Positions 22,454-32,399 of a stretch of DNA of 64,000 bases are shown here, one piece after another. Below the pieces are notes generated by a model. That model ran no database searches and was not told where the DNA came from. It worked only from the letters and a program-made list of their open reading frames with translations. Source of the stretch: Giardia intestinalis (taxonomy: Eukaryota); NCBI GenBank assembly GCA_000002435.2, contig CM018793.1; one strand, 5' to 3'. Within the stretch, counting starts at the first letter, position 1, and the number at the start of each line of letters is the position of its first letter. The position numbers and the translations under genes are program-made.

Positions 22454-25294
22454 CTATAATTTATTACGATTGAGGGTGGCCTGGACGGCTTCTCGCTGTG
22501 CATCAGTAGCGGTGGGTGATATGAGCATTATGTAGTCACGTGCGGTGCGGTTTTCTTTATCTATTAGCTTATATTCCATGGGATAAAGGATCTCTATAGC
22601 TGGTATGTTCATGAATTTCACAGCGAGCATCAAGGCTGTGGTGCCATTCTCGTCTTGAAGTGATGCCTGCATCGAGGCGAGGCACCACACTGAAATGATA
22701 TCGTTATCTATGACGGCCTGCATAAGCTCTGTGCGGCGGTTGCCAATTCTACTGCGATGGGGAACTTGAACGCCTTCGGAGTCCCGTAAGAGCTCTGCAA
22801 TCCTGTACCGTCCCATCATTATTGCGTGGTATAAAGCTGTGTGACCATTAACATCCTTCAGCCCTGCCTCAAAGGGTATCAAATCTTGCACAAATGTGTG
22901 TCTATTGTATTCAACAGCATACATGAGTGCAGTCTTCCCAGCGGATGTTCGTTGTTTTGCATATGATATCGACTCGTTAAACTTGCTAAAATTACACTCC
23001 ACGACAGCTATCATGAGTGGTGTGAGCTCGTCAATGTTTGGTGGGATCACAGGAGCGTTTGCATATTGAAGTGAGCGGGGCGGCGAGGTAGGAAGTGTTC
23101 TGCGCTCCAGGTCCTGACTTAAAATAGCACCAGACCACTTATCTGTGCTCATGCGGGGAGTTGATACTGAAGTGCCGTTAGCGTTCCTGGTAGCTATCTG
23201 TGATATTGTTGCATTTCCTACTCTCTGGTCAGCAACCAACTGCTGCAGGGCATCAATAGAGCTAGTTGATCTAGTGGCTACCGGCTGCAGTATATGAACA
23301 GATCTCCTGCTATCATATGGCGTAATGGATCTACTAGTACGAGAAGACATATCCCGAACTGGAGTATTGTTCTTACTGAGGGAGCCCAATCCAGTAATGC
23401 TGGTTCGCAGATGGTCAATCCCAGACGACTGTCCCGCCAGGCTTTTAATGGACGCCCCTGCTATGGCCTGTATCGATTGCGTGTTGGGGAGATTGTATAA
23501 AGTCTGCGATAAGCGTGCAGTGCTCCTGCCTCCAGTTTCAATCATAGAGCCAGTCAGAATGGTGCTATTAGCCATACCAGATAGTCGCGATTCTAGGACA
23601 GGATCGTCCATGGAGTTGTCCAATGGATGCATGCCGGAATACGCTAGCGTGGGCGAAAGACACCGCGGGACCTGTGGAGATGTAATGCTACGGTCCGTCA
23701 GCCGAATACTATCCTGGTTGAAACCGTCTTCCTCTGCTTTATAACTTAAATTGCTAAGATCAATACTCTGACGATTGCTCACAGTAGTGATGTGCAAGAT
23801 GGTGTCCTTTAACTGAGTGATCTTACGTTGCAGAGCCTCGTTTTCGGTCTTTAAAACCCTGGCCGCATTCTGTCTGGCGGCACTAAGTTTATAGAGCGAG
23901 TCATAATTTGCTCGATAGCGCTTAATGGCCTCTTCAGCCGTGTTTAGCCGCGCCTTTAGTGCAGAAATTTCTAGCTCATAGTTCTGCACCCACTGAACAT
24001 CCACCTGGACCGATCTGGAGACGGTAGGGACATTTGTTGCCATACCAGTCACGACCGCAGGTTGAGAGGGTATGGATTCGCGCAGCTGCTGCTTGGTAGC
24101 GCTGCCAGACCCAACAGAGCTACGGTGAACATCCAGTGAACAAATGTCTGCAGTGGGTGTATGCCTTCCAGAACCCTGGAGCAATGCATACTCTGGAGAC
24201 ACGTGACCGCTCTGTGTTGCTGCTGCAGCTTCCTGTATCCTCGACGATCGAAAATCTTTGCTGTTAATGTCGAGCTTCTTCTTTAGCTCGTCGTTTTGGG
24301 TGTGCAGCGCACAGCATTCTCGTTTATATCTCTCTACTTCTTCACTAAAGTAGGAGTCCATGAGCTGGTGGGACGTCACCTCCTCTAGCTTTCGCTTGAG
24401 ACGATCTATCTCTGCATTTTTCTCCATGATAACTTCATCGAATTTCTGAGTTACACTAGGACGATAATACAAAGACTTCAAGATCTTTATTTCTGCGTCC
24501 TTTTTAGCTACTATCTCAGAAAGTTTAAAAGGTTCCACTGAGTTAGTAGAAGGATCGTAACCATTACTATTAGTAGACGTCGTTTGGGCCTGAACTCCTT
24601 GATCTGTAACAGTCATTTTACATGCAAACAAGTTAAGATACTGCTCACATCGCTTGCAGGGGAAGTCCTTGGTAGCGGGAATCTTGCTCTTGAGCACATT
24701 CTCAAGAGTCGTAAGCCCGCGTCTGTTGGCCAAGAGGATTGCATGGCTAATATCGCTCTGCCGGATAATCTGCGAAGATAGTATGAGGTTCACAGCAGCG
24801 CTGCTTTTAGAAATTACCGCATAGTCTAGCGCATTCATGTTATATATGTCTGTTCGCAAAACGAAGTGCTGCCTAAGAGCGTTGAGAGCATCCACGCTTC
24901 CATGCTGTGCAGCAATCATATATGCGTCCTGGCCTCTGTAATTTGAGATGGATTTTTCTGCGGAGACAAGTATCTTGCAAAATATGGGGCGATTATTCGC
25001 TGCGGCAACCATAAGAGCAGTTTCATCCTGTGCATTCTTCAAGCCTGATTCCGTTCGCTCTAGCTCTCGAACTTGGGCCTCATCGTTATTACGAACCGCA
25101 TTGATCAGAGCACTATCCTTCAATAAACTCGGGCTCATTCGACTACTTAAAATGCTGCTCCCTGCCACCAGGGGAGATTTCGGTGTTTGGCTGGCGGCTG
25201 CAGGGTCTTTTGGAGCCAAACTCTGGGCAGGTAGCATTGACAGAACAAAATTTACCTGTTTTGCCTTTACCTTTTCTTTTATATTCAGTACCAA
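22454..25294 (-). CDS. Ankyrin-repeat plus coiled-coil protein (21.1-like), 946 aa, with ankyrin blocks at both ends.
   Basis: ETALMVAAANNRPIFCKILV, GQDAYMIAAQHGSVDALNAL, GKTALMYAVEYNRHTFVQDL, GHTALYHAIMMGRYRIAELL and GTTALMLAVKFMNIPAIEIL. Central coiled coil. Confidence 0.8.
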   Translation of the reverse strand: MVLNIKEKVKAKQVNFVLSMLPAQSLAPKDPAAASQTPKSPLVAGSSILSSRMSPSLLKDSALINAVRNNDEAQVRELERTESGLKNAQDETALMVAAANNRPIFCKILVSAEKSISNYRGQDAYMIAAQHGSVDALNALRQHFVLRTDIYNMNALDYAVISKSSAAVNLILSSQIIRQSDISHAILLANRRGLTTLENVLKSKIPATKDFPCKRCEQYLNLFACKMTVTDQGVQAQTTSTNSNGYDPSTNSVEPFKLSEIVAKKDAEIKILKSLYYRPSVTQKFDEVIMEKNAEIDRLKRKLEEVTSHQLMDSYFSEEVERYKRECCALHTQNDELKKKLDINSKDFRSSRIQEAAAATQSGHVSPEYALLQGSGRHTPTADICSLDVHRSSVGSGSATKQQLRESIPSQPAVVTGMATNVPTVSRSVQVDVQWVQNYELEISALKARLNTAEEAIKRYRANYDSLYKLSAARQNAARVLKTENEALQRKITQLKDTILHITTVSNRQSIDLSNLSYKAEEDGFNQDSIRLTDRSITSPQVPRCLSPTLAYSGMHPLDNSMDDPVLESRLSGMANSTILTGSMIETGGRSTARLSQTLYNLPNTQSIQAIAGASIKSLAGQSSGIDHLRTSITGLGSLSKNNTPVRDMSSRTSRSITPYDSRRSVHILQPVATRSTSSIDALQQLVADQRVGNATISQIATRNANGTSVSTPRMSTDKWSGAILSQDLERRTLPTSPPRSLQYANAPVIPPNIDELTPLMIAVVECNFSKFNESISYAKQRTSAGKTALMYAVEYNRHTFVQDLIPFEAGLKDVNGHTALYHAIMMGRYRIAELLRDSEGVQVPHRSRIGNRRTELMQAVIDNDIISVWCLASMQASLQDENGTTALMLAVKFMNIPAIEILYPMEYKLIDKENRTARDYIMLISPTATDAQREAVQATLNRNKL

Positions 25295-25362: not shown

Positions 25363-27822
25363 TTAGTCTGTGATGTCTGGCCCATGACTCCTGGCCAATG
25401 GTGTTGATGTGCTTCTAGATTTGCTTAGCACAGTTCCATAAAACTCATAGGGGTTCGATTTCTTCACCATATCTGCGTTGTACTTGTTCAAAGGCGAGGA
25501 GTTGCGTATCCAGCAGTTGGAAATATCTGCAACGATGCTCTTTAGTGGCGAGCGTCCATCGGCAATAACGGGGGGTTGGTAGGATGACTTTAGCAAATAG
25601 CTAGTACTCTTATTTAGCTCAGCATTCCGCTTCCCGAAGAATGCCCTTGAGTCTTCTGAAAGCGCTGTATTGGCGTACTTGGCCTTCGATTCTGTAGGCT
25701 GCGAGGGTGCCAGCTCTACGTGAGTTGAGCTGTGAACTGATAGTGGCAGTTGCTTGCCAGAAATCACCGGCCTTTCTGCGCTCAATTTGATCATTTGGCT
25801 GATGATCGCCTCTGTGTTGGATCGCCTACTCCCATAGGTTAGTACATGCCTGGTTCCCCCGGGAGCACTAGTGGTACTGTTGTCACTGCCGTGGCTGACA
25901 AAGCTGATAGAGCTCAACGTTGTGGATGAAACATCACTTGGTGCACGGTGTTCAGCATCATCAGGTCTCTGTGGCAACTCGGCCAGTTTGTCCGAGGTGA
26001 AGGATGATATGCTAGATGCCTCACGAATAGCATTCTTGATGAAACTAGCAGTGTACTTGCTAGGGGAGTCTACGCCGTCCAAGTCTTTAGCGGAAAGAGA
26101 TCTCCCGAGCGCTTCCGCGTCATCTAGCATGTCCATATCCTCGTCGCCAGCTTTAGAGACAAGGGCACATGGTTCTACATTTACGACTACTATAGGTTCC
26201 GCAGTGGAAGCCATTGTGGTACCCTGGCACTCTTTGGGAAGGCTAGGAAATGAAGCCGCGTCTGGATCGGGTCTATCAAAGCCTTTGCCTCCCTTAGACA
26301 GAATAGTCTTAGAGTCTAGGTGCGCGGTCAAGTGGAGCTCTTGTATGGCATTTTCCAAGTACACTTTCTCTAGAATTGCTGTCTTTGCTATATGCTTCTC
26401 TTTGAGCAGCTCAACGAGGAAAACAGTCAAGTTAGAGAATAAGGTTTCTGTGAGCGACTGCGCACAGTGTATATTCTCAATGGTTGAGACATTGCTAACC
26501 ATGCGAATGAGCTCATCCGCAGTTTTTAGTGTGCTTTCCTTAACCTTGGCAGCAATATCCAGGTTCTCACTACCTCCATTCTCCAAGGTTAGTACTGTAT
26601 TTCGTAACTCTGTAATTAAATTTTCTACATAATCACCAACCATAGCTTTCTCTGCTTCTGCTGTGCCAGCCTCCTTATCAAGCCTTGTCCGTGCGCTTTC
26701 AGCAACCATGTCATTAAACTTATCTAATGCTTCGTCCCTTTCTGCTGTAATCTTCTGCAATTTTGCTGCCTGTTCATCAATCTCAGCCGTTGTAAGACGT
26801 AGCTTTTCCTTTACGGTCTCTAGATCTTCAGCGCACCTATCCAGTGTTATTTTCTTCCGTAAACATTCTGCACATTGAAGGCTAGTGCGCTTGAGTCCTT
26901 CATCCGCTCTATTCACAGTCGGCTCTGCGGCTGCACTGTCAGTCTGAATAGAGGCCTCACACAAGTCTAGAGCAGCTAATACTGAAAGGTCTATTGCCTC
27001 TGCTTTGCTCCTCTCTCTTTCCTCTGCATCGTGAGTCAATCTCTGAATTTCGGTCATGAAGGCACTCAGCGTCGACACACCAGACTCGACATCCTCTGCC
27101 AGTCTTTTGTTTCTTTGCTTTTCACTGGAGAGTGACGTCTTCAGACCTTTAATACGCTTAGAATAGAATGAAGTGAGCGCCTTTCCAAGGGCTGGTGTTC
27201 CTGCTGCCTTCTCAAGTAGTTCGCATACTAGTTCATCTACATTAGTGCTATCATCTGACATAGCACCTTTGACTTGGGCTATAAGTGCTTTCATGGTTGA
27301 TGAACTGAATTTGGCAAGTGTTGTGTCCTCGCCGTGAGGTGAAGCAGATATGGAAGACAGTGACGAAGGGTCATAGGTTGCTAATAACTCTATGACTTCC
27401 TTTGAAGTGTATTCAGAGGCTAATATCCGCGCCGCCTCCAAGTCATCCTGCAATAGCATTCTGTGCTGTAAGAAGAACTTAAGTGGCTCAACATTTCCAT
27501 GTATTATCGCCGTCTCGATGGGAGACATGCCATCCTCGTCTCTCTTCAGCCACGTTCTAATGAGGAATAACTCCAAAAAGTTCGTATTCTTTGCTTCCAC
27601 TGCATAATGCAGGGCAGTCCTTCCTCTAGGGTCGCAGATATGCAGACTGTGTGGCAACAGAAGAGAAGCAAGCTTTGAGGAAGGCTGTTGAGCGACCAGC
27701 ATTAGGGCCGTCTGCCCTGTAGAGTTCTTCTCGTCAGCATGCTTGCCAACCAACTCCTCTATCTGTTTAGAGTCTTCTAGAGTGAGTGCCTGCGACCAAT
27801 CGCTCTGAAATCCAGAAAACAT
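25363..27822 (-). CDS. Ankyrin-repeat plus coiled-coil protein (21.1-like), 819 aa. It is a tandem neighbour of the 22454-25294 paralog.
   Basis: GQTALMLVAQQPSSKLASLLLPH, GRTALHYAVEAKNTNFLELFL and SPIETAIIHGNVEPLKFFL ankyrin repeats, followed by a coiled coil and an S/T-rich C-terminal half. Confidence 0.75.
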   Translation of the reverse strand: MFSGFQSDWSQALTLEDSKQIEELVGKHADEKNSTGQTALMLVAQQPSSKLASLLLPHSLHICDPRGRTALHYAVEAKNTNFLELFLIRTWLKRDEDGMSPIETAIIHGNVEPLKFFLQHRMLLQDDLEAARILASEYTSKEVIELLATYDPSSLSSISASPHGEDTTLAKFSSSTMKALIAQVKGAMSDDSTNVDELVCELLEKAAGTPALGKALTSFYSKRIKGLKTSLSSEKQRNKRLAEDVESGVSTLSAFMTEIQRLTHDAEERERSKAEAIDLSVLAALDLCEASIQTDSAAAEPTVNRADEGLKRTSLQCAECLRKKITLDRCAEDLETVKEKLRLTTAEIDEQAAKLQKITAERDEALDKFNDMVAESARTRLDKEAGTAEAEKAMVGDYVENLITELRNTVLTLENGGSENLDIAAKVKESTLKTADELIRMVSNVSTIENIHCAQSLTETLFSNLTVFLVELLKEKHIAKTAILEKVYLENAIQELHLTAHLDSKTILSKGGKGFDRPDPDAASFPSLPKECQGTTMASTAEPIVVVNVEPCALVSKAGDEDMDMLDDAEALGRSLSAKDLDGVDSPSKYTASFIKNAIREASSISSFTSDKLAELPQRPDDAEHRAPSDVSSTTLSSISFVSHGSDNSTTSAPGGTRHVLTYGSRRSNTEAIISQMIKLSAERPVISGKQLPLSVHSSTHVELAPSQPTESKAKYANTALSEDSRAFFGKRNAELNKSTSYLLKSSYQPPVIADGRSPLKSIVADISNCWIRNSSPLNKYNADMVKKSNPYEFYGTVLSKSRSTSTPLARSHGPDITD

Positions 27823-27902
27823 TCAATTTTTGCACAACCCAAGAGTTGCGCTGATGAAACGGTTTTACTAGAAGTCTCTAATTTGGAACCACACTAGGCA
27901 CG

Positions 27903-30206
27903 TCAGAAGATGGCCTGACAGGTCGCGCAAGCCGCAGAGTGGGCCTGTATCTCGTCGCAAAGCTTCTCGACAAGTGCTATCTGCTTATTGGACAATATAG
28001 ATACAATATCGGACATTGACCAGTAGAAGTTCTGTGTGCCATCGGATTGCACATGCTGCTTGTAGTAGTATGCTTGATCTTCAACTGCTGAGAATATGTG
28101 CGCTAGGCTCACACAGCTGTCTCTACTTCTGAAGCGTTGAGACAGCTTTGTGCGCTTCTGGAGACAGCTACTGAAAGCCGCGTCAAGATCCATTCGGATA
28201 GAAAGCAGATACGCCGTGTCCAAGTTGGGCTGCTTCCAATACTTTTCTAGTGTCTTGTATGAAGCTGCCCCTACTGTGTACTCTCCGGTATCTCTTTTAG
28301 AGCTCAATACTTTAGAGGGTATTATGTGCTTATTAATAATAAGAGAGCACTGCTTGCAATAAATCTTTCCTGTGTAATGACAAAAGAGGAGGCTGGCTTG
28401 TTCTTCTTGGGATGTAGTAGCCAGTGAGCAATCGCAGCCAGCGCACTTATCAGCTTGGAGGCCGCTAATTATCCTTGAGAGATTCGATGGTCTAGAATAG
28501 TCAGTAAGTAAGTATGTGTAGGTGTTGATGTTAATGTTGGGAGCGTTCTCGACACGCAGAAGTGGGGTCACGGAGCTGCTGGTTCCTGCTGCTATCTTAT
28601 CGAATGTGTAATGCTCAACGTTGAATGAGAATGTCTTGTTTGAAAACGCTGGCGCAGATGGAACGACCCCTAGATCTTTGTCCTGCCTCCCCTTATGCTT
28701 GCCTTTTTCCGCCTTTTTGAAGCCATCGCCTTCAGTGACTAAGGCAGCCAAGCGCACCCAGTAATTGACAACACCATCTGTGATAAGCGCCTTTCCGGTA
28801 AAGCTAACCATTTCGCAATCACCCTTTTCAGACAACACGGCCCTCTCTACAGGTACATCTGAGAGGACATCCATCACAAGGCCTTCGGCCTCAATTGTCT
28901 TTGTATCGATCACGGTTTCGATCACAGCGACCCTCTTTGCTATCTTCTTTATCTCGTCCTTTATCGTGGGGCACGTATCGCCGAGCAGACTCCTATTGGC
29001 ATCTGTCAACAGATTAGTCCTCGCAAAAATGGTCTTCACCTCTTCTGCTTCTGGTTTTCGATCATTGACAGAAACTGGTAGGCTTGAGGCTAAGGAGTTG
29101 TCCCCTATTGGGACGAAATCTGAAGCTGGGGATGTAGAGGACGGTTTGGACTCTATGGTTCGTGCCTCCGGCTGCATAGTCTGAGACACAGTTGGCACTG
29201 GTGCTGTTCTAAGAGATGGAGGCTGCGCTACTCTGGTGGCAGCGGCGTCCTTATTCTGCACAGAAGCGATGTTGACAGGGACCCCTGCAATTACCTGAAT
29301 AGAGGAAGATTTGGTCAAGGATTTCAGAAGAGCCGCATCATCAGCCATGGTATCCAATGAAAGAGCTTGTGCCGGTAGGTATCCTGAAGGCTTCGGCGCC
29401 GGGGCAGGAGCAGGAAGCAGCTCTGGCTTCACGGAGTCTGCTGCTGGTTGTGGCTCAGATTTCTGATCCTTCGGATTCTCATCTGGTTGTGATCTCAAAA
29501 CAGAAGGGTCTACTGAGACAGCAAGTGCTGAAGATTGTGCAATGCTTGGGGTGGGCGGAGCCTGCTGAGAAGGTTCTGCGGTGTGGATTGTAGAAGAAGA
29601 CATACTAGAGGGTGCAGTACTCTGCCGAGATGAATCAAGACCGATTTGCTCCTTGTACAATCGCTTGCCATTTATAGCAGCCAGCTGATACTCTGCTAGT
29701 GTCCCGGGGACAACATCTGCAGGGGGGAACATAGCAAGTTGAAACCTCACTCCGGAATCGTGCATACGCATTAAATATTTAATCACCTTGCCTCTCCGCT
29801 TCGCATGGCCCACGACACTCGATTCTGAATACATCTCTGGCATTGTACTTTCACAGAATCCAGTAAATAGACCTATGAATTGATCCTCTGTCAATAGTAG
29901 TCGAGTCAGTGCAAGAATCTTGGCCTGTTCGTTGGCCTGCTGCAGCTCGGGACTGGAAGTAAGTATCGGGAGGATTCTGAATGGATCCTGGAATTTTTGC
30001 TCAATGTACTCACGTATTGATGCCCAAACATACTCTTCCTTGGAGCCCTTGATGAGTATGCACGCAAGCACCTCTGCTAGCCTCTGAGTAACAGGGTCTT
30101 TATCGGTCCAGGTGCTGGCATGCCCTTCTTCACCATAGCGGACATATTCGATGAGAAAATCTAGGGCATCAACGAGGTCTGCCTCCGAGAGATCATGTAC
30201 GGACAT
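27903..30206 (-). CDS. RUN-like N-terminal domain plus C-terminal Rubicon-homology (RH/DUF4206, zinc-binding Cys-rich) domain protein. This is a Rubicon/PLEKHM/DEF8-like architecture.
   Basis: The C-terminal CAGCDCSL..FCHYTGKIYCKQCS..IPSKVL..LLSIRMDL..YYYKQHV..YWSMSDIV..CDEIQAHSAACATCQAIF matches the RH-domain pattern CAGC..CHYCG..FCQSCH..IP..L..IR..L..Y..YSL.DL..H...C..C. The N-terminal ~180 aa resembles a RUN domain. The central region is P/S/A-rich and disordered. Confidence 0.5.
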   Translation of the reverse strand: MSVHDLSEADLVDALDFLIEYVRYGEEGHASTWTDKDPVTQRLAEVLACILIKGSKEEYVWASIREYIEQKFQDPFRILPILTSSPELQQANEQAKILALTRLLLTEDQFIGLFTGFCESTMPEMYSESSVVGHAKRRGKVIKYLMRMHDSGVRFQLAMFPPADVVPGTLAEYQLAAINGKRLYKEQIGLDSSRQSTAPSSMSSSTIHTAEPSQQAPPTPSIAQSSALAVSVDPSVLRSQPDENPKDQKSEPQPAADSVKPELLPAPAPAPKPSGYLPAQALSLDTMADDAALLKSLTKSSSIQVIAGVPVNIASVQNKDAAATRVAQPPSLRTAPVPTVSQTMQPEARTIESKPSSTSPASDFVPIGDNSLASSLPVSVNDRKPEAEEVKTIFARTNLLTDANRSLLGDTCPTIKDEIKKIAKRVAVIETVIDTKTIEAEGLVMDVLSDVPVERAVLSEKGDCEMVSFTGKALITDGVVNYWVRLAALVTEGDGFKKAEKGKHKGRQDKDLGVVPSAPAFSNKTFSFNVEHYTFDKIAAGTSSSVTPLLRVENAPNININTYTYLLTDYSRPSNLSRIISGLQADKCAGCDCSLATTSQEEQASLLFCHYTGKIYCKQCSLIINKHIIPSKVLSSKRDTGEYTVGAASYKTLEKYWKQPNLDTAYLLSIRMDLDAAFSSCLQKRTKLSQRFRSRDSCVSLAHIFSAVEDQAYYYKQHVQSDGTQNFYWSMSDIVSILSNKQIALVEKLCDEIQAHSAACATCQAIF

Positions 30207-30272: not shown

Positions 30273-30731
30273 CTACTCATCGGGCGGGTCGACCAGGTTG
30301 ATCTCCCCGTTCAGGAATATCACAAAGATCATGATGCAACACAACATAAGAGTAACCGACATGACTAAGTGCGACACTGTGTTTATAAGCGACCAAGTGA
30401 ATGTTTCAAACTTCTCCTCCAGTGGACATCGTAACCGTCGATACACACGCTGAAACCGGCGGTTGAGGATTACATATACGGTGCCACTGACGACGATGGC
30501 GACTATTGCTAGGATTGAAAGAGCAAAGCTTAGGTATGCAAAGCCCCCCAGACTAGGGGTATAAGGGCTTCGAAACAGGACTAGGAAGAATACAGAGACA
30601 ATGCGCAAAATATTGTAATAGGTACTAAAAGACTTTTGGTTTAGATGGCTGGATAGAGCAATTTTCTCCTCGCAATCTTCTAACACCAATTTGTCAAGCT
30701 CTTCGTGCGAAAGTTCGAGTGGAAAGTACAT
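30273..30731 (-). CDS. Small (152 aa) predicted multi-pass membrane protein, unknown function.
   Basis: Three hydrophobic segments: IVSVFFLVLF, FAYLSFALSILAIVAIVVSGTVYVIL and LVMSVTLMLCCIMIFVIFL. It fills an otherwise gene-free gap on the same strand as its neighbours. Confidence 0.45.
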   Translation of the reverse strand: MYFPLELSHEELDKLVLEDCEEKIALSSHLNQKSFSTYYNILRIVSVFFLVLFRSPYTPSLGGFAYLSFALSILAIVAIVVSGTVYVILNRRFQRVYRRLRCPLEEKFETFTWSLINTVSHLVMSVTLMLCCIMIFVIFLNGEINLVDPPDE

Positions 30732-30950: not shown

Positions 30951-32399
30951 TTATTTTATGAAGTTGCTAGGCTTAGGTAGATTTAAGTGTGAAGCGAGCG
31001 GAACATACATTGGAATGCTGTGAGCATAATCGCTACCGTCGAGGTGCTTGCTGCCATTATCCTCCTCGTCCTCGTCCTCGTCTTCCTCGTCCCCTTCGGG
31101 ATCAGGGTTTAGATCGTGTTCATCCCCATCTTCGTCAGCGTCTAAATACATCCCAAGGCCATCTATCCGATAATCATCAGCGTGGTAACCGCGGGGAGTG
31201 GGATATCTCTGAGACAAGTACATAGAGTACAGCATGGCTATGTCGAGGATGCTGTTCTCAACGGCGACATTCTTGAACCCGCGTGTTTCATAGACATCTG
31301 GGATTGGAAAGTAAGCAGGCGGGAAAACGTAGGATGCATGCGTCCTTGCCTGTATTTCATTGGCCCACTTTTCCAAGCTTCTAATGGAAAACAACTTGCT
31401 GAAGGGAGACTCCTGCTTTATTTTCTCTAGTATTTGATACTGGTCTTGAGGAGGGTACTCAATCCCACTGTCTCTCCCTCTGCGACCGTCGATGTGCATG
31501 AGGAATGCGTTGTGAGTATAGTCACCATCATCACAGAGTAAGTGAGCAGGAACCAGAACCGAATTTGAAACATTTCCGTCCATTGTACTAGCTATTAAGG
31601 AATCTACGTAAGAAAATAGTTCATGGGGCTCGCAGACTGCATAGGAATTGCCTTTAAAGGTGGATTGATGAGGGTTGTTGTAGGATCCGGATATTCCCAG
31701 TGACGACCCAGTGCTTTGAACCGGGAACTCGTCACCACCGAAGACTCCACTGTGGCCGTGGTGTGCCTGTAGGGATGCTGTGCTAGAAATGGATGAAAGC
31801 TCCGGAGACTTAAGCGTGTCTATATAGTCAGATGTATGGATGATTCCCTCCTTGTTCGACACCTTGATCAATGAATAGTTAGATGTGTCGTGCAGCACCT
31901 TCATGTGGCGCTCGTACTTCCTTTTGGAGCCCAAAAGTCGTTGGAGGTGCTTGTATTCTTCTTGTGGAATCTTAGCCTGTAGCTGTGCTGACTGGGCCTT
32001 CGTGTACCGAACGACGAAGAGGGACCAGTCTGTTCCTGAGTTCTGTGCTATTTGGTAGGCAGAACGTACCTCCTCGCTGGACGATAGAAACGGTGTTGTC
32101 GAGGTATTTAAATCTTCATGGGAATACTTTATGCGGACGCGAAAAAACTGTGATTTGAGAAAGCCTGCCTTGGTTTTATCCTGCAAGGCGATCTTTAAGC
32201 TATCCAGTGTTTGGAAATCTTCGGGACTCAGATCAATGTCATAATATGTAGCGTATCTATAGCTTGGCCTGTCAATCGAGGCATCTTGGCGGAGTGAGCA
32301 CAGCTCTATCCGGGTCCGGCGGGTGTACCCGTGCTCTGCGCCACCAAGCGAGTAGTTGTCCATCCGCAGCAGCCTTGCTTTTAATCCACGATTGGACAC
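30951..32399 (-). CDS. Hypothetical 482-aa protein with a poly-acidic (D/E) C-terminal tail.
   Basis: Long ORF with the C-terminal tail DEDGDEHDLNPDPEGDEEDEDEDEEDNG. No recognisable catalytic motif. Confidence 0.5.
   Translation of the reverse strand: MSNRGLKARLLRMDNYSLGGAEHGYTRRTRIELCSLRQDASIDRPSYRYATYYDIDLSPEDFQTLDSLKIALQDKTKAGFLKSQFFRVRIKYSHEDLNTSTTPFLSSSEEVRSAYQIAQNSGTDWSLFVVRYTKAQSAQLQAKIPQEEYKHLQRLLGSKRKYERHMKVLHDTSNYSLIKVSNKEGIIHTSDYIDTLKSPELSSISSTASLQAHHGHSGVFGGDEFPVQSTGSSLGISGSYNNPHQSTFKGNSYAVCEPHELFSYVDSLIASTMDGNVSNSVLVPAHLLCDDGDYTHNAFLMHIDGRRGRDSGIEYPPQDQYQILEKIKQESPFSKLFSIRSLEKWANEIQARTHASYVFPPAYFPIPDVYETRGFKNVAVENSILDIAMLYSMYLSQRYPTPRGYHADDYRIDGLGMYLDADEDGDEHDLNPDPEGDEEDEDEDEEDNGSKHLDGSDYAHSIPMYVPLASHLNLPKPSNFIK

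What the first reader, a model, noticed from the sequence alone, without database searches (positions are those of the whole stretch)
27903..30206. RUN plus Rubicon-homology (RH) cysteine-rich domain protein
The C-terminal ~170 aa carries the Cys/His spacing and the hydrophobic landmarks (IP, L..IR..L, Y..YS..D) of the zinc-binding RH domain that binds Rab7-GTP in Rubicon, PLEKHM1 and DEF8. The N-terminus is RUN-like. Giardia has a minimal endolysosomal system made of peripheral vacuoles and a reduced autophagy and Rab repertoire. An RH-domain effector there raises the question of which GTPase it engages.
Basis: partly seen in the sequence, partly recalled or inferred. Interest (0 to 1): 0.6.

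Follow-up and report, generated by a model that had tools for sequence, protein, structure and literature searches.

The report
Truncated Rubicon-homology protein in Giardia
This Giardia gene really does encode a Rubicon-homology (RH) zinc domain, but the domain stops short of the zinc-finger module that binds Rab7 in human Rubicon, which fits published reports that Giardia has no Rab7; the claimed N-terminal RUN domain could not be confirmed.

Summary
The 767-aa ORF at 27903..30206 (-) is real. It is 100% identical to Giardia duodenalis XP_001709344.1/A8B5Z8, which public databases already label a zinc-RING/ribbon or RH-domain protein. The RH call holds: Pfam RH_dom scores 51.2 bits against a 28.1 cutoff, and the only significant sequence and fold match in the PDB is Rubicon RH (6WCW).

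The domain is incomplete. The Pfam match covers profile positions 2-153 of 206. The protein ends at H756-x3-C760-x2-C763-QAIF*, which aligns to Rubicon H877/C881/C884. The last eight family-conserved Cys/His ligands and helix alpha13 are missing. Ten of Rubicon's 16 published Rab7-contact positions are deleted, and only one of the remaining six is identical.

The same end is seen in all G. duodenalis assemblages and in G. muris, so it is not an artefact. The literature reports that Giardia lacks Rab7, Rab5, Rab6 and all main autophagy (ATG) genes except VPS34 and VPS15.

Best reading: this is a remnant of a Rab7-effector family that lost its Rab7-binding module and is kept for a Rab7-independent scaffold role. 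It is a new variant of a known kind, of moderate interest.

The parts
27903..30206 (-). Complete ORF of 767 aa including the stop codon; equals G. duodenalis XP_001709344.1 / UniProt A8B5Z8
29637..30206 (-). N-terminal conserved all-helical domain (aa 1-190), family unassigned.
   Evidence: 80% mean pairwise identity among assemblages. The AF2 model is all-helical but has pLDDT 50.6. No RUN signal. Not present in the G. muris orthologue.
29046..29636 (-). Ser/Pro/Ala-rich variable linker (aa 191-387). It carries an assemblage-A-specific in-frame deletion of about 75-85 aa.
   Evidence: 63% identity and an average of 55 gap columns; alignment A1
29268..29384 (-). Conserved island inside the linker (aa 275-313, GYLPAQALSLDTMADDAALLKSLTK...), containing an acidic di-leucine-like DDAALL
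   Evidence: Run of invariant columns in A1. A similar string is seen by eye in G. muris P0007 but is not significant by BLASTP.
28887..29045 (-). Two predicted helices (aa 388-440) preceding the conserved core
   Evidence: H2-19 and H26-53 of the model, pLDDT about 53; 77% identity
28497..28886 (-). Pre-RH beta-rich conserved region (aa 441-570), fold unknown
   Evidence: 78% identity among assemblages. Conserved in G. muris from aa 464. AF2 pLDDT below 50. No Pfam or PDB match.
27906..28496 (-). Truncated RH domain (aa 571-767): a FYVE-like zinc module, the helical stalk and the first His/Cys triad
   Evidence: Pfam RH_dom 2-153/206; 6wcw_A by sequence and by fold; pLDDT 66-92
28347..28445 (-). 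Zn cluster 1 region (aa 588-620). C588, C591, C617 and C620 correspond to Rubicon C721, C724, C747 and C750. C609 corresponds to C739. Rubicon H751 is replaced by S621.
   Evidence: weak Pfam FYVE hit in 2 of 5 orthologues
28113..28115 (-). C698, equivalent to Rubicon C826. This is the family-wide conserved Cys at the end of the stalk, flanked in Rubicon by Rab7 contacts N821, M822, T825 and R827.
27918..27941 (-). H756-x3-C760-x2-C763, equivalent to Rubicon H877/C881/C884. These are the last conserved ligands before the protein ends (QAIF*).
27903..27905 (-). TGA stop codon. It falls at about Rubicon position 886-890, in the middle of the Rab7-binding helix alpha12.
27864..27869 (-). AGTAAA about 35 nt after the stop, a Giardia-type polyadenylation signal. 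The next gene's ATG is at 27822.
   Evidence: Sequence; ORF list. The identity of the motif as a polyA signal comes from my own knowledge.

Best explanation
SHOWN. The gene encodes a cytosolic multidomain protein with this layout: an unassigned helical N-domain, a disordered S/P/A-rich linker, a conserved beta-rich region, and a C-terminally truncated RH domain. The RH part keeps the FYVE-like Cys4 zinc cluster 1, the helical stalk, and a C698/H756/C760/C763 set. It ends inside the equivalent of Rubicon helix alpha12. It lacks the terminal C-x2-C...C-x2-C...H-x2-C...C-x2-C finger and helix alpha13. This end is shared by every G. duodenalis assemblage and by G. muris.

INFERRED. An ancestral full-length RH protein, which was a Rab7 effector, lost its Rab7-binding module in the Giardia lineage before the muris/duodenalis split. 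This happened in step with the published loss of Rab7 and of the Beclin-1/ATG machinery. The remaining FYVE-like-plus-stalk module, probably holding two zinc ions instead of four, is kept under purifying selection. It acts as a Rab7-independent scaffold or adaptor on Giardia endomembranes. Partner binding is supplied by the pre-RH region, the linker motifs and a lineage-specific N-domain, not by the canonical RH-Rab7 surface.
For: RH identity: Pfam 51.2 bits against a 28.1 cutoff, in all five orthologues. 6wcw_A is the only PDB hit by sequence and by fold.

Truncation: Pfam coverage is 2-153/206 in G. duodenalis and 2-151/206 in G. muris. It is 1-205/206 in Rubicon-like, choanoflagellate, amoebozoan and other hits. 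Alignment A4 shows Giardia stopping at CQA(IF) where the other proteins continue with about 55 residues.

Residue mapping: Rubicon numbering was verified against all published contact residues. The eight terminal conserved ligands are absent. Ten of the 16 Rab7-contact positions are deleted. Of the six that remain, only A886=A765 is identical, and A886D was the one mutant with no effect.

Not an artefact: the same C-terminus appears in P0001-P0005 and P0007. Stops in all frames, an AGTAAA motif and the next gene's ATG follow within about 80 bp. No detached finger module is found in the window.

Constraint: 80% identity in the RH region against 63% in the linker. G. muris is 35% identical over aa 464-763, and C698, H756, C760 and C763 are all retained.

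[quoted passage not shown] Only Rab1, Rab2a/b and Rab11 are solid orthologues (PMC6953089). All main ATGs except VPS34 and VPS15 are missing (PMC8161075). In Rubicon, Zn clusters 2-4, the stalk end and alpha13 make the Rab7 interface, and zinc-finger mutants lose Rab7 binding (PMC7382272 and PMC2993745).
Against: No binding, zinc-content or localisation data exist for this protein.

The co-loss with Rab7 rests on one lineage.

A second truncated RH lineage of unknown Rab7 status exists (P0021). Truncation therefore need not be tied to Rab7 loss.

The stalk-end contact region and the H/C/C triad survive. A reduced GTPase-binding surface is therefore not excluded.

The assignment of C698/H756/C760/C763 to a single zinc site is my inference from conservation. 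The Rubicon paper describes Zn clusters 2 and 3 as Cys2His2 without listing the residues in its text, and I could not inspect model coordinates.
Confidence: 0.6

Rival explanations
1. One reading: a RUN + RH protein that acts as a canonical Rab-GTP effector. It would use the RH zinc domain to bind a Rab7-like or substitute Rab on peripheral vacuoles.
For: The RH family assignment is solid. By eye, the N-terminus has a RUN-like block (LAEVLACILIKGSKEEYVW against LVNQLDKILAHGLREEFPDYW), and hhalign picks the same block as its best alignment, though not significantly.
Confidence: 0.08
2. A retargeted GTPase effector. The truncated RH still binds a different small GTPase (for example Rab11, Rab2, Rab1, a Giardia-specific Rab, an Arf/Arl or GlRac). 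It would use the stalk end, the residual zinc site and the new hydrophobic C-terminal tail (QAIF/VALV).
For: The stalk-end segment around C698 and the H/C/C triad are conserved from G. muris to G. duodenalis. The C-terminal residues are conserved within G. duodenalis. In Rubicon this same corner contacts Rab7 switch II.
Against: Five of the six surviving contact positions are substituted: N821R, M822S, R827V, L883T and T825S. There is no experimental hint of a partner, and no GTPase gene lies nearby. The surviving surface would be a small fraction of the 870 A2 Rubicon interface.
Confidence: 0.2
3. Annotation or assembly artefact, or a decaying pseudogene. The RH domain would be cut short by a frameshift, a mis-called stop or an unrecognised intron.
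For: The domain ends abruptly in the middle of a conserved helix.
Against: The identical protein is seen on 159 contigs. The same C-terminus occurs in four other assemblage-level orthologues and in G. muris at 35% identity. All frames are closed after the stop, a polyA-type motif follows, and the next gene's ATG lies about 80 bp downstream. The ORF is intact, and the RH region is as conserved as the other folded regions.
Confidence: 0.02
4. A lipid-binding FYVE-type protein. The retained Zn cluster 1 module would bind PI3P made by Giardia Vps34 and so target the protein to peripheral vacuoles.
For: The Rubicon 708-784 region is FYVE-like (PMC7382272). Two of five Giardia orthologues give a weak Pfam FYVE hit at E=0.18. 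Giardia retains VPS34 and VPS15.
Against: The canonical FYVE PI3P motifs (WxxD, R[R/K]HHCR, RVC) are absent. The sequence reads ...LLFCHYTGKIYCKQCS... with no basic cluster. The FYVE hit is far below threshold. Rubicon's own FYVE-like region is not reported to bind lipids.
Confidence: 0.1

Closest known systems
Rubicon (RUBCN) RH domain, PDB 6WCW
   Same: It is the only significant sequence and fold match. The two share the Zn cluster 1 Cys4 set, the conserved stalk Cys (C826=C698), the H877/C881/C884 triad, and the IP, R and YS..D landmarks.
   Different: Giardia ends at about Rubicon residue 886-890. It lacks C891-C932 (eight conserved ligands), helix alpha13 with R931/R934/R938/R939, and contacts K887, F889, I890, Q895, E897 and I900. 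It has no Pfam RUN and no RUBC_PIKBD (PI3K-binding) domain. According to the literature, Beclin-1 and Rab7 are themselves absent from Giardia.
PLEKHM1 and DEF8 (other RH-domain proteins)
   Same: They belong to the same Pfam RH_dom family as Rubicon.
   Different: No PH, C1 or RUN domains were detected in the Giardia protein at E<=10. The PLEKHM1 RUN fragment (8jc5_C) shows no similarity to the Giardia N-terminus. The terminal finger needed for PLEKHM1-Rab7 binding (CGHL mutants) is absent.
Giardia muris 'Ankyrin repeat protein 2' (TNJ27645.1, P0007)
   Same: It is the orthologous core: 35% identity over aa 464-763 (E=2e-52). It has the same truncated RH (Pfam 2-151/206) and the same H-x3-C-x2-C ending.
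   Different: Its N-terminus is made of ankyrin repeats instead of the helical domain, and the protein is shorter at 618 aa.
Truncated RH protein P0021/P0008 from an unidentified eukaryote (Logan SRR20336963)
   Same: The RH domain is also cut short (Pfam 2-142/206), at a real stop with no continuing frame.
   Different: It ends even earlier, before the His/Cys triad. Its N-terminal 900 aa are unrelated, and the organism and its Rab7 status are unknown.
FYVE zinc finger (PF01363)
   Same: The retained Zn cluster 1 module is FYVE-like in Rubicon, and two Giardia orthologues give a faint FYVE hit.
   Different: It is far below the Pfam threshold, and the PI3P-binding basic motifs are absent (read directly from the sequence).

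Membership tests
RH domain (Pfam PF13901 RH_dom / former DUF4206, zf-RING_9) | Profile match above the curated gathering score | tested here: met
   51.2 bits against 28.1, E=2e-13. All five orthologues and G. muris match.
RH domain (Pfam PF13901 RH_dom / former DUF4206, zf-RING_9) | Fold similarity to the solved RH structure (6WCW) | tested here: met
   Foldseek E=2.7e-8, prob 1.00, 197 aligned columns, TM (target-normalised) 0.47, and it is the only hit with E<=0.001. The match covers the N-terminal three quarters or so of the domain.
RH domain (Pfam PF13901 RH_dom / former DUF4206, zf-RING_9) | Zn cluster 1 (Cys4) ligands | tested here: met
   C588, C591, C617 and C620 align with Rubicon C721, C724, C747 and C750 and are invariant in A4.
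RH domain (Pfam PF13901 RH_dom / former DUF4206, zf-RING_9) | C-terminal zinc-finger-like motif of nine Cys plus one His (Tabata 2010), i.e. the ligands of Zn clusters 2-4 | tested here: not met
   Only C760 and C763 (plus H756 and C698) are present. Equivalents of C891, C894, C912, C915, H920, C923, C929 and C932 do not exist. Pfam coverage stops at 153/206.
RH domain (Pfam PF13901 RH_dom / former DUF4206, zf-RING_9) | Conservation of the Rab7-contact residues (N821, M822, T825, R827, L883, A886, K887, F889, I890, Q895, E897, I900, R931, R934, R938, R939) | tested here: not met
   Ten of 16 positions are deleted. Of the rest, one is identical (A765) and one is conservative (S697).
RH domain (Pfam PF13901 RH_dom / former DUF4206, zf-RING_9) | GTP-dependent binding to Rab7 | not testable with these tools
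   This needs biochemistry. The literature reports no Rab7 in Giardia.
Rubicon (RUBCN) orthologue | N-terminal RUN domain (PF02759) | tested here: not met
Rubicon (RUBCN) orthologue | PI3K-binding domain (PF21054 RUBC_PIKBD) | tested here: not met
   It is absent at E<=10, whereas the Rubicon-like hits P0009, P0012 and P0017 have it.
PLEKHM1 / DEF8 | PH domains (PLEKHM1) or a C1 domain (DEF8) upstream of the RH | tested here: not met
   RH_dom is the only Pfam family at E<=10.
RUN domain (PF02759) | Six-helix RUN fold with the conserved blocks A-F | tested here: inconclusive
FYVE domain (PF01363) | WxxD, R(R/K)HHCR and RVC motifs for PI3P binding | tested here: not met
   The motifs are absent from aa 571-640 (sequence). 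The best Pfam FYVE E-value is 0.18, in 2 of 5 orthologues.

The most novel reading that the evidence does not exclude
The N-terminal three quarters of the RH domain (FYVE-like zinc module, stalk and one residual zinc site) would be an autonomous functional unit with an ancestral, Rab7-independent activity, such as binding a Vps34/Vps15 complex, a membrane or another GTPase. Giardia, and independently at least one other eukaryote (P0021), would have kept this unit after discarding the Rab7-binding finger. That would make Giardia a natural separation-of-function mutant. It would expose a second, so far unrecognised function of RH domains in Rubicon, Pacer, PLEKHM1 and DEF8.
Probability: 0.25. 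Interest if true: 0.6.

Novelty: new variant of a known kind. Interest (0 to 1): 0.4.

Why it matters
RH domains are known only as Rab7-GTP-binding modules of autophagy and endolysosome regulators. According to the literature, Giardia is one of very few eukaryotes without Rab7, and it lacks nearly all of the ATG machinery.

Giardia keeps an RH protein under selection, yet that protein lacks precisely the zinc-finger and alpha13 module that forms the Rab7 interface. This gives a clean example of an effector domain being remodelled after its GTPase was lost.

It also changes the experiment worth doing. The more useful question is what the FYVE-like-plus-stalk half of an RH domain does on its own, and the answer could feed back on Rubicon, Pacer and PLEKHM1 biology.

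For Giardia cell biology it offers a tractable candidate scaffold of the peripheral-vacuole/ER system. It also cautions against transferring the 'Rab7 effector' annotation from the Pfam name alone.

Tried and rejected
1. A word-indexed homologue search with the RH region as plain letters returned nothing, not even the protein itself, so one search was wasted. The N-terminal profile search found only a fragment of the same protein. No deeper N-terminal alignment could therefore be built.
3. The AF2 model of aa 388-767 resolved only the RH part. The pre-RH region stayed below pLDDT 50.
It was rebuilt without that row.
5. The AFDB50 fold search, intended to show whether other metamonads keep a full RH, was unavailable.
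6. Literature searches for Giardia plus Rubicon, for Giardia plus DUF4206, and for the protein's accessions found nothing relevant. The 2026 GlRac autophagy-like pathway paper does not mention this protein.
7. Rab7 status in other diplomonads could not be established from the papers retrieved.
8. The split-gene idea, with the missing finger encoded nearby, is rejected for this window: no matching motif in any frame and no small-GTPase gene.
9. The artefact or pseudogene idea is rejected because the ending is conserved across species.
10. A CaaX-type prenylation signal at the new C-terminus is rejected from the sequence. The last Cys is at -5 in G. duodenalis and at -6 in G. muris.
Full report
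OBSERVATION. It is 100% identical to a Giardia duodenalis protein (XP_001709344.1, KAE8305073.1, UniProt A8B5Z8). NCBI calls this a 'putative zinc-RING and/or ribbon domain-containing protein'. UniRef calls its orthologues 'Rubicon Homology domain-containing protein'. The organism guess and the bare existence of an RH domain are therefore correct, and both are already in public databases. I found no paper that discusses the protein.

THE RH DOMAIN IS REAL. Pfam finds a single family in the protein: RH_dom (PF13901), E=2e-13, 51.2 bits against a gathering score of 28.1, at aa 608-765. All five G. duodenalis-group orthologues match it. A sequence search of the PDB finds only 6wcw_A, the human Rubicon RH domain crystallised with Rab7-GTP (E=3.4e-4 with the single sequence, 4.3e-7 with a five-sequence profile). 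An AlphaFold2 model of aa 388-767 is confident over the RH part (pLDDT about 66-92 for aa 571-767). In a Foldseek search of the PDB, its only significant match is again 6wcw_A (E=2.7e-8, probability 1.00, 197 aligned columns).

THE RH DOMAIN IS TRUNCATED. The Pfam match covers profile positions 2-153 of 206 and runs to the last residues of the protein. I recovered the human Rubicon RH sequence from 6WCW through a Rubicon-like bridge protein. I then fixed the numbering as chain position + 695. This offset reproduces every residue named in the structure paper: T825, L883, A886, K887, F889, I890, Q895, E897, I900 and R931/934/938/939.

In the alignment of Giardia proteins with seven full-length RH domains (A4), Giardia H756/C760/C763 align with Rubicon H877/C881/C884. 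The protein then ends (…CQAIF*) at about Rubicon residue 886-890. All full-length members continue for about 55 residues: KGF-C-x2-C … C-x2-C-x4-H-x2-C … C-x2-C, followed by a basic helix.

The family-wide conserved Cys/His fall into three groups. The first is C721, C724, C739, C747, C750 and H751. The second is C826, H877, C881 and C884. The third is C891, C894, C912, C915, H920, C923, C929 and C932. Giardia keeps the first group except that H751 is replaced by S621. It keeps all of the second group and none of the third. The 'nine Cys + one His' zinc-finger-like motif that Tabata et al. used to define the Rab7-binding core (PMC2993745) matches C881…C932 in my alignment. That match is my inference. 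Giardia has two of those ten residues.

WHY THE TRUNCATION MATTERS. According to the crystal structure paper (PMC7382272), Rubicon RH is L-shaped. Zn cluster 1 is FYVE-like and distal to Rab7. [quoted passage not shown] Of the 16 contact residues named there, 10 have no Giardia counterpart because the chain has ended. These are K887, F889, I890, Q895, E897, I900, R931, R934, R938 and R939. Of the six remaining positions, only A886=A765 is identical, and A886D was the one mutant without effect. T825 becomes S697. The other four are changed: N821R, M822S, R827V and L883T. Point mutations in the deleted region (K887D, F889D, the 4R-to-D set, and the zinc-ligand CGHL mutant) abolish Rab7 co-localisation in human cells.

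THE TRUNCATION IS NOT AN ARTEFACT. The identical protein is seen on 159 contigs. Orthologues from other assemblages (P0002-P0005, 68-82% identical) end with the same H-x3-C-x2-C-Q-x-I-F*. An exhaustive HMMER search of 1.84 billion representatives found the G. muris orthologue (P0007, TNJ27645.1; E=9.5e-45). It is only 35% identical over aa 464-763, yet it ends the same way (H-x3-C-x2-C-GVALV*; Pfam 2-151/206). In the window, the stop is followed by closed frames, an AGTAAA motif (a Giardia-type polyA signal, from my own knowledge) and the next gene's ATG about 80 bp downstream. No detached finger module is encoded elsewhere in the window. The RH region is as conserved among assemblages (80%) as the other folded parts, and more conserved than the linker (63%).

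THE RUN CLAIM. I could not confirm it.
- Pfam RUN is absent at E<=10 from the full protein and from each of the five N-termini.
- A profile of the N-terminal 190 aa finds no RUN structure in the PDB. A Rubicon-like RUN domain does find the PLEKHM2 and PLEKHM1 RUN chains there.
- hhalign against a Rubicon-like RUN sequence and against a small RUN profile gives probabilities of 0.24% and 0.28%.
- A shuffle-calibrated Smith-Waterman test gives z=-1.1 to 1.8 for Giardia against RUN, compared with z=5.9-17.6 for RUN against RUN.
- The G. muris orthologue carries ankyrin repeats at its N-terminus instead, so this domain is not part of the conserved core.

A very divergent RUN fold is not excluded, but nothing measurable supports it. 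The PI3K-binding domain of Rubicon (PF21054) and the PH or C1 domains of PLEKHM1 and DEF8 are also absent. The protein is therefore an RH-family member but not an orthologue of any named RH protein.

CELLULAR CONTEXT (from the literature). [quoted passage not shown] Only Rab1, Rab2a/b and Rab11 group solidly with orthologues (PMC6953089). All main ATGs except VPS34 and VPS15 are reported missing, so Beclin-1/ATG6 is absent too (PMC8161075). Both known partners of Rubicon are thus reported absent from Giardia.

INTERPRETATION. The following is shown: a conserved Giardia protein whose only recognisable domain is an RH domain lacking its Rab7-binding finger and alpha13. The following is inferred: an ancestral Rab7 effector lost that module in the Giardia lineage, alongside the loss of Rab7. 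The residual module consists of FYVE-like Zn cluster 1, the stalk, and probably one more zinc site formed by C698/H756/C760/C763. Together with the conserved beta-rich pre-RH region (aa 464-570), it survives as a Rab7-independent scaffold. What it binds is unknown.

The main live rival (about 0.2) is that the surviving stalk-end corner now binds another small GTPase. A PI3P-binding FYVE-type role is unlikely, because the basic PI3P motifs are missing. A second truncated RH protein from an unidentified eukaryote (P0021) shows that the N-terminal part of RH can persist alone elsewhere. This supports the idea that it is an autonomous unit, and it also weakens a strict link between truncation and Rab7 loss.

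VERDICT. RH is present, RUN is not supported, and a 'Rab7-type effector' role is unlikely. The protein is a new variant of a known kind, because the domain annotation is already public but the truncation and its fit with Rab7 loss appear undescribed in the searchable literature. Interest is moderate (0.4). The finding is a tidy, testable case of effector remodelling after GTPase loss and a possible handle on a second RH function. It rests on sequence and model evidence from one lineage only.

Noticed in passing
window 29046-29636 (-), aa 191-387; alignment A1 columns ~300-388: Assemblage-A proteins (this window and DHA2) are 767 aa, while orthologues from other assemblages are 829-883 aa. The difference is an in-frame indel of about 75-85 aa in the Ser/Pro/Ala-rich linker.
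   Followed up: partly
window 29268-29384 (-), aa 275-313: A conserved island in the otherwise variable linker (GYLPAQALSLDTMADDAALLKSLTKSSS...) contains DDAALL, which matches acidic di-leucine patterns ([DE]xxxL[LI] / DxxLL). G. muris P0007 has a similar-looking ALTETFDDDLLLSSLPK by eye, but BLASTP does not report it. It may be a short linear motif.
   Followed up: partly
window 28497-28886 (-), aa 441-570: A beta-rich region just upstream of the RH domain is conserved among assemblages (78%) and in G. muris from aa 464. It has no Pfam or PDB match and AF2 pLDDT below 50, so the fold is unknown.
   Followed up: partly
P0007 (G. muris TNJ27645.1) aa 1-130, compared with window aa 1-190: The G. 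muris orthologue has ankyrin repeats at its N-terminus where G. duodenalis has an unrelated helical domain. This indicates domain replacement, or a different gene model, between the two Giardia species.
   Followed up: partly
L001 1678-5109 (Logan SRR20336963), protein P0021: An unidentified eukaryote encodes a 1143-aa protein whose RH domain is also truncated (Pfam 2-142/206). It ends ...ALEKCV* before the His/Cys triad, with no continuing frame. Its neighbours are a MAPK-like gene and a beta-lactamase-fold gene.
   Followed up: partly
window 25363-27822 (-) and 22454-25294 (-): The two genes immediately downstream on the same strand are ankyrin-repeat proteins (819 and 946 aa), presumably of the large Giardia ankyrin-repeat family. 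No functional link to the RH gene is evident.
   Followed up: no
window 30273-30731 (-) and 30951-32399 (-): The upstream neighbours have no Pfam family. One is a 152-aa ORF with hydrophobic, transmembrane-looking stretches. The other is a 482-aa ORF with an acidic C-terminal tail.
   Followed up: no
window 28765-29184 (+): A 139-aa TTG-start ORF lies antisense inside the RH gene. It is most likely a chance ORF in the opposite frame of a coding region.
   Followed up: no
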